DNA of 64,000 bases from Acidobacteriota bacterium (GCA_963666055.2 CAXWPH010000015.1:1472001-1536000), one strand, 5' to 3'; shown: positions 48,102 through 54,702, numbered from the stretch's first letter. Translations and numbers: made by a program. Notes: a model not told the origin generated them from the letters alone.

Positions 48102-49032
48102 CTAACCCGGAGTCTCGTGCGTCGTTGGTGGCCGGCTGGCCGAGAGCCAGCGAGCGTCGAGCTCATCGATGGTGGCACAGCCAATCTGCGTGAGGATGTC
48201 CTCGAGCCCCTCCCGCAGGATCGCCACGGCGTGATCACCTCCCGGCTTCCCGAGCGCCGCAACGCCATAGATGAACGCTCTGCCGCAGAACACGAGCTGC
48301 GCCCCGTGGGCCAGGCAACGGGCAACGTCGAGGCCGCTCATTACGCCGCTGTCGATCATGATCGTGGTGCGGTCGCCAACGGCAGCGCGAATCGCCGGCA
48401 ATGCGGCTAGCGGCGTGGGCGCCGCGTCGAGCTGGCGCCCCCCGTGGTTGGAGACGATCAGGCCGTCGGCGCCGGCGTCCACAGCGCGTCGGGCGTCGTC
48501 GGGATGGAGAATCCCCTTGAGCACGAACGGCCCCGACCACCGTGCGCGGATCGCCTCGATCGCCTTCCAGGACAGCGGGCGGCGCAAGAACTGCTCCCCG
48601 ACGTAGCTTTCCAGTGACGTAGAGCTGGAACCAGGCGCGCGGCCCCGCCAACTCGCCGATCTCTTCCATTTCGACGGTCGATAGCGTGCTCAGGCAATAC
48701 GGAATGCCGGCCCGCGCCGCTGCCGCCGCCAGAATCAGCTCGGCGCCGGGCCACATGAGCCCGCTGAGCCCGATCGGCGCGATACCGAACGGCAGCTCGT
48801 AGCGCTGTCCGAACAACTCCGTCGACAGCTCCAACGAGGTCACGTCGACCATGAACCGCGGTGTCAAGGTCACGGCGTCCAAGCGAGCGCGGTTGCGCTC
48901 GAGACATACCTCGCGCCCGCTGGCTCCCTGCAAGTAATCGAACGCGAAGCGCGGAATTCGCCGTTCGGCGGTGCGCGCCAGGTCCTCGATCGAGGGGTGA
49001 CGCCGCATCATGGGGCTGGGCGAGTAATCCAT
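48102..49032 (-). pseudogene. FMN alpha-hydroxy-acid oxidase (LldD/MdlB-like) with internal deletion and frameshift
   Basis: N-half ends at WFQLYV. Near 48616 another frame continues LESYVGEQF..LSW..VLKGI..SNHGGRQLD. The LTVD..RERD segment is missing. Confidence 0.8.
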
Positions 49033-49042
49033 CAGGCCACCG

Positions 49043-50311
49043 CTACTCACCCCGCTTGACGACCGTACCGGCGAGCATGACGAACGAGACGTGTTCCGTC
49101 GCGCGAATGTCCTCCAGGGGGTTCCCCGGTACCGCGATGAGGTCGGCCAGTCGCCCTACCTGGATCACGCCGCGATCGGTCACCCCGAGTACAGCAGCCG
49201 CCTCGATGGTGGCGGACTGCAACGCTGCCAGCGGTGCCATGCCGCGTTCCACGAGAACGGCGAACTCGCCGGCATTGTCGCCGTGCGGGTACACGCCGGC
49301 ATCGGTTCCGAAGCCGATCTTCACCCCAGCGGCGATTGCCTGGGCGAGGCTCTCGCGCGCCAGCGGCAGGATGCGCTCGGCCTTGGAGCGTAGCAGTGGT
49401 GGCAGCGCGTCTAGATCGATGGCGTCGATGAGGTAGGTGGTCGGTACGAGGTAAGTACCCCGCGCCTTCATCAGCTCGATGGTCTCGGTATCGAGGATCG
49501 AGCCGTGCTCGATCGACGCCACGCCGGCCCGCACCGCGGCGCGGATTCCCTCGGTGCCGTGGGCATGCGCCGCCACCTTGATGCCGTGCCGCGCCGCCTC
49601 CTGCACCATTGCCTCGAGCTCCGCGAAGCTGTACTGCTGCGCGCCGACGGATTCCTCGAACGACAGCACGCCGGCGGTGGCGCACGTCTTGATGACTTTG
49701 GCGCCAGGCTTGATCTGGTAGCGCACCGCCTTGACGACCTCATCGGGACCATCGGCGATGCCGTCGCGCCAGCTGGTCTCGAGCACTCCCGGGGCGAAGC
49801 CGGTGATGTCGCAATGCCCGCCGGTGATGCCAATGGGATTGCGCGATGGAAACACGTGTGGTCCCGTCACCATGCCGGTCTCGACGGCGCGGGCGAGCGC
49901 CACGGTCACCTCGCCGCCGAAGTCGCGCACGGTGGTGAAGCCGGCGAGAACCGTCTTGCGTGCATTGGACGTGGCTCGGAAGGCCGCATCGACATCGGTT
50001 TCTCTTACCGCACGATTGAACGAGTCCGCGTCGATGTCGCCGCCCAAATGGGTGTGCAAGTCGATGAAGCCTGGCAGGAGCGTGACATCGCCGAGATCGA
50101 TCACCTGCGCATCAGGAGGTAGCTGGCCGACCGCACTGATGCGGCCGTTGACGATGGCGATAATGCCCGGCTCGACCATGCGTCCCTGTACGACGTCGAG
50201 CATGCGGGCGGCGCGCAGCACGACGGTTGCGTCGTCCTGTGCCAGGCCGACACTGGGACGGACCAGCAGCAGCAATGTGATTAGCAGTAGGAGGCGACTC
50301 AAGAAACGCAT
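49043..50311 (-). CDS. Exported metal-dependent amidohydrolase (Xaa-Pro dipeptidase-like)
   Basis: PGFIDLHTH, TGGHCD, AAHAHG, IEHG and FGTDAG. Confidence 0.9.
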   Translation of the reverse strand: MRFLSRLLLLITLLLLVRPSVGLAQDDATVVLRAARMLDVVQGRMVEPGIIAIVNGRISAVGQLPPDAQVIDLGDVTLLPGFIDLHTHLGGDIDADSFNRAVRETDVDAAFRATSNARKTVLAGFTTVRDFGGEVTVALARAVETGMVTGPHVFPSRNPIGITGGHCDITGFAPGVLETSWRDGIADGPDEVVKAVRYQIKPGAKVIKTCATAGVLSFEESVGAQQYSFAELEAMVQEAARHGIKVAAHAHGTEGIRAAVRAGVASIEHGSILDTETIELMKARGTYLVPTTYLIDAIDLDALPPLLRSKAERILPLARESLAQAIAAGVKIGFGTDAGVYPHGDNAGEFAVLVERGMAPLAALQSATIEAAAVLGVTDRGVIQVGRLADLIAVPGNPLEDIRATEHVSFVMLAGTVVKRGE

Positions 50312-51154: not shown

Positions 51155-53098
51155 GTGTCGCGTGTAGAGAAGTTACTCGGAGCAGTCGTCGTCGCCGTGC
51201 TCACAATGCCCGGTAGCGCGGTGGTCCAGGCACAGGACGAGACGTCGAGGGGGGAGTGGCGGTCGTCCGGAGGCGACAGCGCCTACACGCGGTATTCGCC
51301 GCTCGATCAGATCACCCGCGACAACGTGAAGGATCTGCGGATCGTGTGGCGTCGCCCGGGTCTCGACCCCGAGTTCGCAGAGAAGTACCCGAGGCTACGA
51401 ACCGGCAATTATCTGCGCGCCACGCCGACGATGCTCGACGGGGTGCTGTACACACCCAACGCCGCCGGCCTGGTCGAGGCCGTCGACGCGGCCACCGGCG
51501 AGACGATCTGGCGCCAGGAGCCACCGCCAGAGATGGCGCAAGAGCGAAACTCGCAGAGCACACGGGGGGTGGATCACTGGGAGGGCGATTCACAACGCCG
51601 GCTGTTCTCGAATCGGAACGGCTACCTGTATGCGCTTGATTTGCGTACCGGCGAGCCATTTGCCGGGTTCGGCGACAACGGTCGGGTAAGCCTCACGCCG
51701 ACAGAGGCGCGCAACTTCCGCTGGACCTCCGGCCCGATCGTGGTGGGCGACGTTGTCGTTATCGCCGGCAACGTCGACGGCGCCGGTGACAGCGGCATGC
51801 GGTGGAGGGACAGCTTGTCGGAGGACGTACGCGGCTTCGACGTTCTCACCGGCCGGCTGCTCTGGACCTTCTACGTGGTGCCCCGCGAGGGTGAGTATGG
51901 TGCCGAGACCTGGGGCGACGACTCCCGAGCGCACTCAGGTGATCTTGGTTCCTGGTGTTGTGTGTCCGCTGACGAAGAGCTCGGCTACGTATACGTTCCG
52001 CTAACCGCTCCGACGGCGGCGTACTACGGCGGACACCGGCCCGGCGACAACCTCTTCTCCAACACCCTCGTGGTGCTCGATGCCAAGACCGGCGAGCGCG
52101 TCTGGCACTTCCAGATGGTGCATCACGACCTGTGGGAGTACGACACGGTGGGCCCGGCGACCCTGGGCGACATCACCGTTGACGGGCGGCGAATCAAGGC
52201 GGTCATGCAACCCAGCAAGACCGGCTACCTGTATGTCTTCGATCGCGCCACAGGTGCGCCCGTGTGGCCCATCGAGGAGCGCCCCGTGCCGCCATCCACC
52301 GTGCCGGGCGAGCACGCCGCGCCGACGCAGCCGTTTCCCACCAAGCCGCCACCGTTCGCGCGCGTCGGTTTGACCGAGGACGACTTCATCGACTTTACGC
52401 CGGAGCTGCAGGCGCGGGCGCGGGAGCTTGCCGAACAGTTCGTCATCGGTTCCATCTTCACGCCGCCCTCGCTGGTCAGCGACGAGCCGGGCGGCACCCA
52501 GGGGACCCTCATGGTGCCCGGCTCATGGGGTGCGGGAAATTGGAACACCGGCGCCTTCGATCCGGAGACCGGCTTCTACTATGCGGTCTCGCATGCGATT
52601 CCACGCGTCTATCGCATCGCCAAGACCGACGACGACGGCGCGGAGATGGACTACTGGAGCCCTAACCGCGAAGCGCCGTACATCGACGGCTTGCCCCTTA
52701 TCAAGCCTCCCTGGGGACGCGTCGTGGCGCTGGATCTCAACCGCGGCGAACACGTGTGGACGATCGCCAACGGCGATGGTCCTCGGGACCACCCACTCCT
52801 CGAAGGCCTCAACCTACCACCGCTGGGGATTGCCAGTCGACCGACGCCGCTGGTGACCAAGACCCTGCTGTTCATCGGTGACGGCAGCGACGTATTCGGC
52901 GGCATCCCGGAGCTGATGTATGGTCGCAAGTTCCGTGCCCTCGACAAGGCTACCGGCGAGGTGCTTTAGGAAACCGAGCTGCCGGCGGCGCAGACGGGTG
53001 GCCCGATGACCTATCTGGTCGGAGGCAAGCAGTTCATCGTAGTGGCCATCGGGGAGAGGGATCGGCCCTCGGAGTGGGTGGCGCTGGCGCTGCCATGA
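51155..53098 (+). pseudogene. PQQ-dependent glucose/quinate dehydrogenase-like gene with in-frame TAG at 52967-52969
   Basis: YSPLDQI, WHFQMVHHDLWEYD and KPPWG motifs; GEVL*ETELP..GGPMTY..GKQFIV..ALALP continues in frame to TGA 53098. Confidence 0.88.
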
Positions 53099-53144
53099 CC
53101 CTCCATAGACTCAGGAGACGCGGCCGCCGCGCCGCGCCGTGTGG

Positions 53145-54398
53145 CTACTGCACCGCCGGGATCACGTGGTCGATGATTACCGACTGCGCCGAGTAAGACT
53201 GCTCGTAGATGTTCCAGGAGTTGACCACCGCCACGAGGTCGAGCTCGGGGACGATGATCAGCGACTGGCCGCCGTAGCCCGATCCGCCGTACTGCTTCGG
53301 GGCGTCACCGCTGCCGTCGTTCATGATCCACCACTGGAAGCCGTAGCCTCGCTTGCTGTCGGGGTTGTCGGGAGTGGCGAACGACACCCAGGGACGTGCC
53401 GATCTCTCTACCCAGCCCTCCGGGAGAAGGCGGACGCCGTCCCAGACCCCGTCCCGCATGAACAGATAGCCGATCTTCGCGAGATCTTCCGGCTTGAGGT
53501 ACAGGCCGCCCTCGGTGTCTTGGAGGCCGTCGGGAATCGCCTTCCAGTAGTAATCGGTGATGCCCAGCGGGCCGAAGAGGTATTCCTCGGCGTACTCCCC
53601 GACGTTGAGGCCGGTGGTGGCCTTGAGAATCGCCGACAGGATCATCGAGTTGCCGCTGTTGTAGACGAAGGTCTCTCCCGGCGCCGCCGCCATCGGCTTG
53701 TCGAGCACGAACTGCACCCAGTCTTCCGAGGCTTCGAGCTGCGCCGCGTCGTTGCCCATATCCGTATAGGGCAGCGTGAACTCGTCCCACTCGAAGCCCG
53801 GTCGCATGGTGAGCACGTCTTCGAGCGTGATCGTCGCCTTTAGCCCGTCTGGGTCGGGTATCTCCCGGTCCGAGAGATAGGAGAGCGCCGCCACTTCGGT
53901 GCCCTCGATCTCGCCCCGGTGGATGGCGATGCCGATCAGCGCCGAGGTCACGCTCTTGGTGATCGACTGGATCGTATGCACCTCCGACCCTTCACGGAAC
54001 GGGTGGTAGTCGGGGTTGTAGTAGTTGTATTGGTGTGGTTCCTGCTCGTAGCTGGAGTTGATCTCGACGTAGTCATGGTCATAACGGAAATCGGCGATTA
54101 CCCGCCCGTTGCGCGTCACCACCAGCGCATCGACGTTTCCGTAGGCTCCTACCGCCAGCTCAGCGTCGAGCGCTGCCAGCGCGGCACCGTCGACGCCTTC
54201 GTCCTCAGGTGTGGAGCGACTCTAGCCGTTGGTTGGCCAAGCAGTGGGTTCCGGGATCTCGGAGTCGCTCGCACCGCCGCCGGCGCATGCGGCCATCGCC
54301 GCGCAGGCGACGACTACCAGCAGATGGGGGTGCGCTGGCCGATGTCCGGCGATGCACCTGCTCGGGAAGACGGGTGGCGTTGAAACGCGCTCTTGCAT
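53145..54398 (-). pseudogene. Serine hydrolase (NylB/class C-like) lipoprotein with in-frame TAG at 54222-54224
   Basis: ATG 54398, hydrophobic signal ending MAAC, WPTNG*SRSTPE, then QSITKS, YNSG and YGFQWW in the same frame. Confidence 0.85.
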
Positions 54399-54494
54399 GG
54401 GTGATCTCGCTGGTCTGGGGGCAGGATGGGGTGCACCTTAGCATTCGGTCGGAGGTTGTTGCTGGGTTCCCCGGATGAGCCCAGGCGGGGCTGT

Positions 54495-54661
54495 TAGCAG
54501 GCCGTGGTGGAAGTGTCGCCCGAAGGGTTACGGCGATTTGGGGTCATCTGCGGCGTTGGCCCTCCTGGACGATGGCTGGAGCATTGCCGGCGTCAGGCCG
54601 CCTTCCAACTGGCCCCAACTCGCCGTAACCAGGCCCGCCACACTTCCACCACGGCCTGCTA
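54495..54661. mobile_element. 167-bp fold-back palindromic MITE-like element
   Basis: Perfect 22-bp inverted arms TAGCAGGCCGTGGTGGAAGTGT (54495-54516 and 54640-54661) and a second 19/21 stem (54526-54546 and 54610-54630); TTAG/CTAG ends. Confidence 0.78.
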
Positions 54662-54702
54662 GTATCCAGCCAGCAACGACGATAGATACGATGGAGGCGA
54701 GC

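What the first reader, a model, noticed from the sequence alone, without database searches (positions are those of the whole stretch)
51155..54398. Two adjacent convergent genes each carry a TAG at a conserved Trp position
Seen: the PQQ dehydrogenase reads GEVL-TAG-ETELP and continues 42 sense codons to its natural end. The opposite-strand serine hydrolase reads WPTNG-TAG-SRSTPE, separating its lipoprotein signal from the catalytic domain. The two stops are about 1.25 kb apart and I saw no other disabling lesion in either gene. Known: these motifs are normally G..LW.T.LP and WPT.GW. Inference: either two independent TGG>TAG transitions or consensus errors, or conditional rescue as Trp by amber suppression or by A-to-I editing (UAG>UIG, as in fungi and HDV). 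Convergent transcription could supply dsRNA. Global recoding is excluded because many genes here end in TAG. Simple mutation remains the most likely explanation.
Basis: partly seen in the sequence, partly recalled or inferred. Interest (0 to 1): 0.72.

Follow-up and report, generated by a model that had tools for sequence, protein, structure and literature searches.

The report
Two real, recent Trp-to-stop mutations
Two neighbouring enzyme genes of an uncultured Acidobacteriota bacterium each carry a real stop codon (TAG) where close relatives have tryptophan (TGG), most likely two ordinary recent knock-out mutations and not RNA editing or a changed genetic code.

Summary
Both TAGs are present (52967-52969, +; 54224-54222, -). 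They are not assembly errors: contigs from three samples in two studies read TAG at both sites. Close relatives have TGG at both.

No dedicated rescue system was found. RF1 is intact, PylS and PylB are not found, and ARAGORN's 'tRNA-Pyl(CUA)' is a mis-registered tRNA-Arg(UCU) remnant. Neither site has the UACG core or loop that TadA needs, though site 1 matches 6 of 7 motif bases.

The genome holds about 35 other premature stops of all three kinds; Trp sites split 4 TAG to 3 TGA. The same scan recovers likely selenocysteine TGAs, two of them shared with a sister species. That sister has its own adjacent pair of Trp nonsense changes, and a third gene 2 kb away in the window is also broken.

Verdict: two young nonsense pseudogenes in redundant accessory genes; ordinary. 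No RNA data were available, so low-level readthrough is untested. The scan reported similar TGG>TAG cases in other genomes.

The parts
51155..53098 (+). PQQ-dependent beta-propeller dehydrogenase gene (Pfam PF01011, residues 35-628; NCBIfam TIGR03074 below cut-off), 647 codons, broken at codon 605
   Evidence: 94.9% identical to the intact G002 orthologue
52967..52969 (+). Premature TAG replacing TGG (Trp605). It removes the last 43 residues, which include Pfam-matched residues 605-628 and align weakly to the C-terminal propeller segment of solved quinoprotein dehydrogenases
52811..52811 (+). Segregating SNP, codon 553: AAC (Asn) in the window, ancestral GAC (Asp) in sample S3. The Asp haplotype also carries the TAGs, so the stops likely predate this SNP
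53099..53144 (.). 46-bp gap between the convergent 3' ends; no intrinsic-terminator-like site and no unusual fold
53145..54398 (-). Beta-lactamase-family serine hydrolase gene (Pfam PF00144, residues 92-392; SITK motif at 145-148; lipobox-like MAAC at 35-38 read by eye), 417 codons, broken at codon 59
   Evidence: 88% identical to the intact G002 orthologue
54222..54224 (-). Premature TAG replacing TGG (Trp59), between the signal/linker and the catalytic domain
48102..49050 (-). Third broken gene nearby: an FMN-dependent dehydrogenase in two frames (Pfam PF01070 positions 1-120 and 202-348; 121-201 missing). The G002 copy is broken differently
   Evidence: contigs of X3, X4 and X5 span it without gaps

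Best explanation
Two real TGG-to-TAG point mutations interrupt two adjacent enzyme genes, and they most likely inactivate both as young pseudogenes. RF1 would stop translation at each UAG. That would give a 604-residue dehydrogenase predicted to lack its last propeller segment, and a 58-residue signal-peptide stub of the hydrolase. The changes likely arose independently and late on this species' branch, and likely persist because both genes are dispensable accessory enzymes with intact paralogues. Their adjacency is best read as chance plus local relaxation of selection. Shown: the stops, their presence in several samples, TGG in relatives, the background of other nonsense changes, and the failed searches for recoding machinery. 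Inferred: loss of function, independence, timing and the reason for persistence.
For: (1) Real DNA: contigs from 3 samples in 2 studies read TAG at both sites.
(2) Private to this lineage: TGG in 8 of 8 loci covering the PQQ site (about 5 distinct genomes or contigs). At the hydrolase site, 42 of 61 loci covering the column have TGG, none has a stop, 11 are gaps and 8 have other residues. Among the 64 listed matches to the PQQ C-terminus in 11 family genomes, only the window's copy has a TAG.
(3) Ordinary background: 41 homology-supported internal stops in G000 (18 TAG, 12 TGA, 11 TAA). The 18 TAGs stand for 8 different residues plus one gap; 3 stand for Trp, against 3 TGA for Trp. The hydrolase site, missed by that scan, makes it 4:3. 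The strict orthologue scan finds 9 stops in 1,513 G000 genes and 14 in 1,491 G002 genes.
(4) Of 6,755 G002 Trp codons in well-aligned gene cores, 6,699 are TGG in G000, 2 are TGA and 1 is TAG.
(5) The sister genome has the same kind of coincidence: TGG>TGA at G002:C9:2368405 and TGG>TAG at 2370001 in consecutive genes (not read-checked).
(6) A third gene about 2 kb upstream is broken in both genomes, in different ways.
(7) Redundancy: 10 PQQ C-terminal matches in G000, 9 without a stop; 12 hydrolase-family matches.
(8) RF1 is intact and over its cut-off. PylS and PylB are not over cut-off, with controls ringing.
(9) C>T and G>A are the commonest changes on the PQQ gene's branch, 36 of 61.
Against: Branch dN/dS shows no relaxation. 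G000 has 32 non-synonymous and 73 synonymous changes in the two genes (stops excluded); G002 has 33 and 70 (Fisher p = 0.88). This fits a recent knock-out but equally a gene kept alive by readthrough.
The stops are in every haplotype seen, including one that keeps the ancestral Asp553. They are not one-off alleles, although these strains differ at only about 4 sites in 16 kb.
Two TAG-for-Trp sites in adjacent genes are unlikely in one genome taken alone (p = 0.003).
Site 1 matches 6 of 7 bases of the TadA motif, which about 1% of Trp contexts would.
On the hydrolase's branch, C>T plus G>A are only 12 of 46 changes.
Belinky et al. argue that many bacterial in-frame stops are read through (PMC7918605, passages).
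Confidence: 0.9

Rival explanations
1. The genes stay partly functional through leaky, unprogrammed UAG readthrough by near-cognate tRNAs (Gln, Tyr, Lys, Trp, Glu). The alleles would be knock-downs, not knock-outs.
For: No excess of non-synonymous change and no second lesion in either gene. In RF1-deficient E. coli, UAG is misread as Q, Y, W, E and K (PMC4333366, passages). In-frame stops in bacteria often sit in sequence with dN/dS below 1 (PMC7918605).
Against: RF1 is intact. The flanks are the ancestral sequence, with no new signal. The local folds are no better than shuffles, z = +1.19 and -0.33. The same paper says such stops tend to persist only on the time scale of population polymorphism. 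Most insertions would not be Trp.
Confidence: 0.04
2. Conditional A-to-I editing (UAG to UIG) restores Trp, by TadA or by an unknown deaminase acting on RNA made double-stranded by convergent transcription.
For: Site 1 reads TTAGGAA, one base from the YTACGAA motif; 0.95% of 24,419 Trp contexts would match that well. A TadA-like gene is present. With TadA overexpressed, 29% of edited sites deviate by one base from TACG (PMC12255301). No terminator-like site lies between the genes.
Against: The mismatch at site 1 is at +1, where mutation abolished hokB editing. Its 17-nt arm does not fold (0.0 kcal/mol, against -4.1 for the tRNA-Arg arm). Site 2 has 4 mismatches. The site-1 flanks are ancestral. 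There are four PF00383 deaminases; they look like TadA, RibD, cytidine deaminase and one tRNA/nucleoside deaminase-like protein. No ADAR-family match was found, but the control was silent. An antisense transcript would have to run about 1.1 kb into the hydrolase gene to cover site 2. No relative keeps TAG.
Confidence: 0.02
3. A CUA-anticodon tRNA (Pyl or a suppressor) decodes UAG.
For: ARAGORN calls a tRNA-Pyl(cta) at G000:C5:65608-65685 (-); Rfam scores it as a generic tRNA at 45 bits.
Against: It is 88% identical to the genome's tRNA-Arg(UCU), and 38 of its first 39 bases match, through the CTTCTAA loop. The CUA reading needs a one-base register shift and two G.A mismatches in the anticodon stem. 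Two other exact 5' halves and two 3' pieces of that tRNA lie elsewhere in the genome, as expected of integration-site remnants. No full copy of it was found in the 4 other genomes of the genus. PylS and PylB are not found. 425 of 1,265 aligned genes end in TAG.
Confidence: 0.01
4. One linked event (a clustered mutation burst, or selection against this locus followed by a sweep) made or fixed both stops together, rather than two independent, drifting changes.
For: Adjacency p = 0.003 for this class. Both stops are present in all haplotypes seen. Both products are predicted to be exported, so loss could be favoured.
Against: The two changes are on opposite strands (G>A at 52968 and C>T at 54223 on the + strand), which a single-strand processive event would not give. 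The branch shows no local excess of C>T or G>A over G002. A haplotype with only one stop was not seen, but strain diversity is too low to test this.
Confidence: 0.03

Closest known systems
Young single-lesion nonsense alleles and pseudogenes in bacterial genomes (in-frame stops surveyed by Belinky et al. 2021, PMC7918605; passages read)
   Same: Single G:C>A:T change to a stop, otherwise intact frame, dN/dS still below 1, confined to a near-clonal population, absent from sister species.
   Different: Two such lesions of the same codon class in adjacent convergent genes; a similar pair (TGA and TAG) occurs in sister genome G002.
TadA-dependent A-to-I mRNA editing in bacteria (PMC12255301; passages read)
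   Same: TadA-like gene present; site 1 matches 6 of the 7 motif bases.
   Different: Both sites lack the UACG core and a loop position. The known edits recode Tyr>Cys and Thr>Ala; 'stop codon' has no occurrence in that paper's main text.
Pyrrolysine (UAG) decoding: pylT, PylS, PylBCD (recalled)
   Same: In-frame UAG; a tRNA called 'Pyl' by ARAGORN.
   Different: No PylS or PylB; the tRNA is an Arg(UCU) derivative; the TAGs replace Trp and are not conserved.
Selenocysteine (UGA) recoding, present in this genome
   Same: In-frame stop within conserved domains.
   Different: Those TGAs align to Cys, recur across four DUF3179 paralogues, two are shared with G002, and selA and tRNA-Sec are present. 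The TAG-for-Trp sites show none of this.
Premature-stop editing in filamentous fungi and the HDV amber/W site (recalled, not searched)
   Same: UAG to UIG would give Trp.
   Different: Those sites are conserved and sit in defined contexts with known editing enzymes; here the stops are lineage-private and unstructured.

Membership tests
Young nonsense pseudogene | Stop is in the DNA, not an assembly error | tested here: met
Young nonsense pseudogene | Orthologues intact, stop one base from the ancestral codon | tested here: met
   TGG in all close relatives covering the sites
Young nonsense pseudogene | Other premature stops in the genome are of mixed type and residue | tested here: met
   18 TAG, 12 TGA, 11 TAA; Trp sites 3:3 in the scan, 4:3 with the missed site
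Young nonsense pseudogene | Relaxed selection after the stop | tested here: inconclusive
   32/73 against 33/70 non-synonymous/synonymous, p = 0.88; too recent to show, or still selected
Young nonsense pseudogene | No full-length protein made | not testable with these tools
   needs proteomics
Genome-wide TAG reassignment | TAG not used as a stop; TAG spread over sense positions; RF1 lost | tested here: not met
   425 of 1,265 gene ends TAG; 1 of 6,755 Trp positions TAG; prfA intact
Pyrrolysine system | PylS and PylB genes | tested here: not met
   no match over cut-off, controls rang; genome 95.7% complete
Pyrrolysine system or amber suppressor | Well-formed tRNA with CUA anticodon | tested here: not met
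   the only candidate among 60 tRNA calls is a tRNA-Arg(UCU) derivative with a broken anticodon stem
TadA mRNA editing site | UACG core within YUACGAA | tested here: not met
   TTAGGAA (1 mismatch, in the core) and CTAGAGT (4 mismatches)
TadA mRNA editing site | Edited A in the loop of an anticodon-arm-like hairpin | tested here: not met
   17-nt arm 0.0 kcal/mol at site 1; at site 2 the UAG is at the stem-loop edge of an unremarkable fold
A-to-I editing (any enzyme) | A>G in RNA but not DNA | not testable with these tools
   no RNA run holding the stretch was listed
ADAR-type editing | ADAR deaminase gene (PF02137) | tested here: inconclusive
   no match, but no control genome rang
Programmed readthrough | Stop conserved across species | tested here: not met
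   no relative has a stop at either site

The most novel reading that the evidence does not exclude
A bacterial premature-stop switch: this lineage has turned two exported enzymes into conditionally expressed genes whose UAG is restored to Trp by A-to-I editing (TadA acting at a relaxed UAGGAA motif at site 1, or a new deaminase on convergent-transcript duplex), a prokaryotic counterpart of fungal stop-codon editing.
Probability: 0.02. Interest if true: 0.85.

Novelty: already known. Interest (0 to 1): 0.08.

Why it matters
As it stands it matters little: it is a well-checked case of fresh gene loss in an uncultured Acidobacteriota species, in which under 1% of compared genes carry premature stops. 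It is a useful calibration for the scan, because adjacent same-class nonsense pairs arise by ordinary decay (a second pair lies in the sister genome) and ARAGORN 'tRNA-Pyl' calls can be tRNA-Arg(UCU) remnants. If editing or readthrough did restore Trp here, it would be stop-codon rescue by editing in a bacterium; the editing survey I read does not mention stop codons, and I did not search further for precedents.

Tried and rejected
Consensus error: rejected.

RNA evidence: no RNA holder listed; this is no evidence either way.

Structure: single-sequence AlphaFold of the read-through PQQ protein failed (mean pLDDT 33) and is not used. The PDB match for the C-terminal segment is weak on its own (i-Evalue 9-12), so loss of the last blade rests on the Pfam span and general knowledge of the fold.

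Rfam: no match at gathering score in the window. No sigma-70-type promoter-like site; one terminator-like site inside the hydrolase gene, at chance level.

Re-initiation after the hydrolase stop: the only in-frame starts in codons 60-130 are GTG at 93 and 94, without a clear ribosome-binding site. A cytoplasmic fragment is unlikely but not excluded.

Discarded scans: one search was dominated by antisense-frame false positives and is not used for counts; its TGG>TGA at C1:71470 is ambiguous and left out. One search included upstream extensions with many non-coding false positives. The strict filter missed the hydrolase site and C15:1637111. sees only genes with a homologue in G000 or the fetched part of G002 and missed the hydrolase site. 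From its 41 rows I set aside the 6 TGA-for-Cys rows (5 likely Sec, 1 probably plain nonsense) before the adjacency simulation. Three of the 18 TAG rows are copies of one IS.

Only 2.8 of about 6.0 Mb of G002 were compared (2.14 Mb aligned). Wider stretches of G004 were not available, so polarity was assigned only around the locus.

D553N as a sign of relaxed selection: rejected as specific evidence, because all 4 clean SNPs segregating in 16 kb are non-synonymous, 3 of them in intact genes.

The CTAG-targeting MITE as the cause: site 2 now reads CTAG, but the ancestral sequence is CTGG and nothing is inserted; site 1 is TTAG.

Full report
OBSERVATION. Both stops are as described. The + strand gene 51155-53098 encodes a PQQ-type beta-propeller dehydrogenase (Pfam PF01011, residues 35-628, E 1.8e-171) with TAG at codon 605 and 42 sense codons after it. 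The - strand gene 54398-53145 encodes a beta-lactamase-family serine hydrolase (PF00144, residues 92-392) with TAG at codon 59. The lipoprotein signal is my reading of a lipobox-like MAAC and was not run through a predictor. Against sister genome G002 (91% nucleotide identity over the aligned part) neither gene has a frameshifting indel. The closest named records are Acidobacteriota MAGs (L157, L158). The window's genome is 5.73 Mb in 15 contigs and 95.7% complete.

ARE THE STOPS REAL? Yes. Contigs from runs X1, X2 and X3 (three samples, two studies) cover 52321-54543 in one piece with 0, 0 and 1 differences, and X7 covers site 1 with none. A second laying adds X4 (both sites), X5 (site 2) and X6 (site 1). 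Depths are low (2-8), contigs drop rare variants, and one sample may be the assembly's source. The one difference, A>G at 52811, is seen in X3 and X6, and X4's contigs break exactly there. It restores the ancestral Asp553. That haplotype still carries the TAGs, so the stops likely predate this SNP. The strains differ at only about four clean sites in 16 kb, so the sampled population is nearly clonal.

RELATIVES. All four other genomes of the genus have TGG at the PQQ site, and the three whose alignment reaches it have TGG at the hydrolase site. With the loci, 8 of 8 loci have TGG at the PQQ site (some redundant). At the hydrolase site 42 of 61 have TGG, with no stop, 11 gaps and 8 other residues; 101 loci had some match. 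Among the 64 listed matches to the PQQ C-terminus in 11 genomes of the family, only the window's copy has a TAG. The stops are private to this lineage, which argues against a programmed signal.

GENOME BACKGROUND. A strict codon comparison with 2.8 Mb of G002 found 9 premature stops in 1,513 G000 genes (4 TAA, 3 TAG, 2 TGA) and 14 in 1,491 G002 genes (9 TAG, 3 TGA, 2 TAA). It also found 43 and 40 apparent frameshifts, which were not checked against reads. A genome-wide scan needing a homologue across the stop found 41 sites in G000: 18 TAG, 12 TGA, 11 TAA. The TAGs stand for Tyr (5, three being copies of one IS), Ser (3), Trp (3), Glu (2), Lys, His, Met, Gln and one gap, judged by the best homologue, some of them distant. 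Trp is replaced by TGA three times. With the hydrolase site, which that scan missed, the Trp tally is 4 TAG to 3 TGA. Of 6,755 G002 Trp codons, 6,699 are TGG in G000, 2 TGA and 1 TAG. TAG ends 425 of 1,265 aligned genes and swaps with TAA or TGA at 27.

INTERNAL CONTROL. The same scan picked up six TGA-for-Cys sites. Four lie in DUF3179 genes, two have a TGA counterpart in the fetched part of G002, and the genome has selA and two tRNA-Sec calls. So likely true recoding is visible here and looks different: repeated across paralogues and shared between species.

MACHINERY. RF1 is intact. PylS and PylB are not found, with controls ringing. ARAGORN's tRNA-Pyl(cta) on C5 matches the genome's tRNA-Arg(UCU) at 38 of its first 39 bases, through the CTTCTAA loop, and diverges after it. 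The CUA reading needs a shifted register and two G.A mismatches. Exact halves of the same tRNA, cut at that loop, lie elsewhere in the genome, and a tRNA-Met-like fragment sits beside it. I read it as an integration-site remnant (inference). Four PF00383 deaminases are present: one TadA-like (140 bits, cut-off 150), one weaker TadA-profile match (69 bits), and two that I read from their sequences as RibD and cytidine deaminase. An ADAR-family search was blank with no working control.

EDITING. Bacterial mRNA editing needs UACG within YUACGAA in a stem-loop, and changing the +1 base abolished hokB editing (PMC12255301; passages). Site 1 is TTAGGAA, one base off, which only 0.95% of 24,419 Trp contexts would match. 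This is the single point in favour of editing. However, the mismatch is the +1 base, the 17-nt arm has no fold, the flanks are ancestral, and site 2 has four mismatches. The 101-nt folds around both sites are no better than shuffles. Low-level near-cognate reading of UAG, including Trp, is known in RF1-deficient E. coli (PMC4333366; passages), so a trace of full-length protein cannot be excluded.

TIMING AND ADJACENCY. Polarised with outgroups, the two genes show 32 non-synonymous and 73 synonymous changes on the G000 branch (stops excluded), against 33 and 70 on G002's (p = 0.88). The neutral ratio would be about 2.5. By my hand estimate the genes were neutral for under about a tenth of the branch, if at all. 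This fits a recent knock-out and cannot by itself exclude continued function. Random placement gives p = 0.003 for two of 4 TAG-for-Trp sites being adjacent, 0.013 for 8 Trp sites and 0.26 for 36 stops. A scan over very many windows will meet such pairs. G002 has one of its own: TGG>TGA at C9:2368405 and TGG>TAG at C9:2370001 in consecutive genes, with an apparent frameshift 0.7 kb further on. In the window, the FMN-dependent dehydrogenase gene at 48102-49050 lacks profile positions 121-201 and is in two frames. Contigs confirm it, and the G002 copy is damaged differently. The PQQ gene has nine paralogous C-termini without stops in this genome.

LITERATURE SEEN. Three searches (listings and abstract starts); passages of PMC12255301, PMC4333366 and PMC7918605. 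No supplements were read. Fungal and HDV editing and the Pyl system are recalled. Belinky et al. report that in-frame stops are widespread in bacteria, lie in sequence with dN/dS below 1, and tend to persist only on the time scale of population polymorphism, which matches this case. Earlier notes of this scan reached the same reading for TGG>TAG cases in other genomes; they are unchecked and are not counted as support.

VERDICT. The best explanation is two recent, ordinary amber nonsense mutations in redundant accessory genes (0.90). Leaky readthrough 0.04, one linked event 0.03, editing 0.02, suppressor tRNA 0.01. Already known kind; interest 0.08.

Noticed in passing
G000:C15:716085, C15:1117111, C15:1843610, C3:143459: Four of eight DUF3179 matches carry an in-frame TGA aligned to Cys (e.g. 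VW-TGA-PL), with selA and tRNA-Sec present: likely selenoproteins. The C3 site is also TGA in G002.
   Followed up: partly
G000:C7:331677: In-frame TGA aligned to Cys in PGHVAGST*GRV of a protein that looks like an MBL-fold hydrolase/rhodanese fusion (family read by eye). A G002 homologue has the same TGA: likely selenocysteine.
   Followed up: partly
G000:C15:80278, 209816, 990089; G002:C9:282998, 1818343, 2191108, 2229512: A short transposase-like ORF (IS3-like orfA by recall) has TAG for Tyr in three identical-context copies in G000, and at a different Tyr in four copies in G002. These are either stop-bearing elements moved in trans or a regulatory stop.
   Followed up: no
window 54514-54662: A ~149-bp repeat with inverted termini between the hydrolase and the next gene; 191 BLAST hits in G000, and a copy at the same place in G002. 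It may belong to the MITE family of note e1-3110878; not compared directly.
   Followed up: partly
L001:9609-9686 (G000:C5:65608-65685, -): tRNA-like sequence with the 5' half of tRNA-Arg(UCU) and a divergent 3' half, mis-called tRNA-Pyl. G004 has several partial tRNA-Arg(UCU) copies clustered at C2:2.45-2.48 Mb, suggesting repeated integration at this tRNA.
   Followed up: partly
window 48102-49050 (-): FMN-dependent dehydrogenase gene with an internal deletion and frame change, confirmed by contigs, and independently damaged in G002.
   Followed up: yes
L008 (G012:C9:493281-494393): A distant homologue of the hydrolase also has a TAG at a Trp, at a different position (ILPEG*VRQST).
   Followed up: no
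window 45502, 47153, 47501, 52811: All four clean SNPs between the window and sample S3 are non-synonymous; at three, the window has the derived allele.
   Followed up: partly
G000 tRNA list: Two tRNA-Sec calls and duplicated Lys-Glu-Thr and Ser-Ser tRNA clusters on different contigs: duplication or a second related genome mixed in.
   Followed up: no
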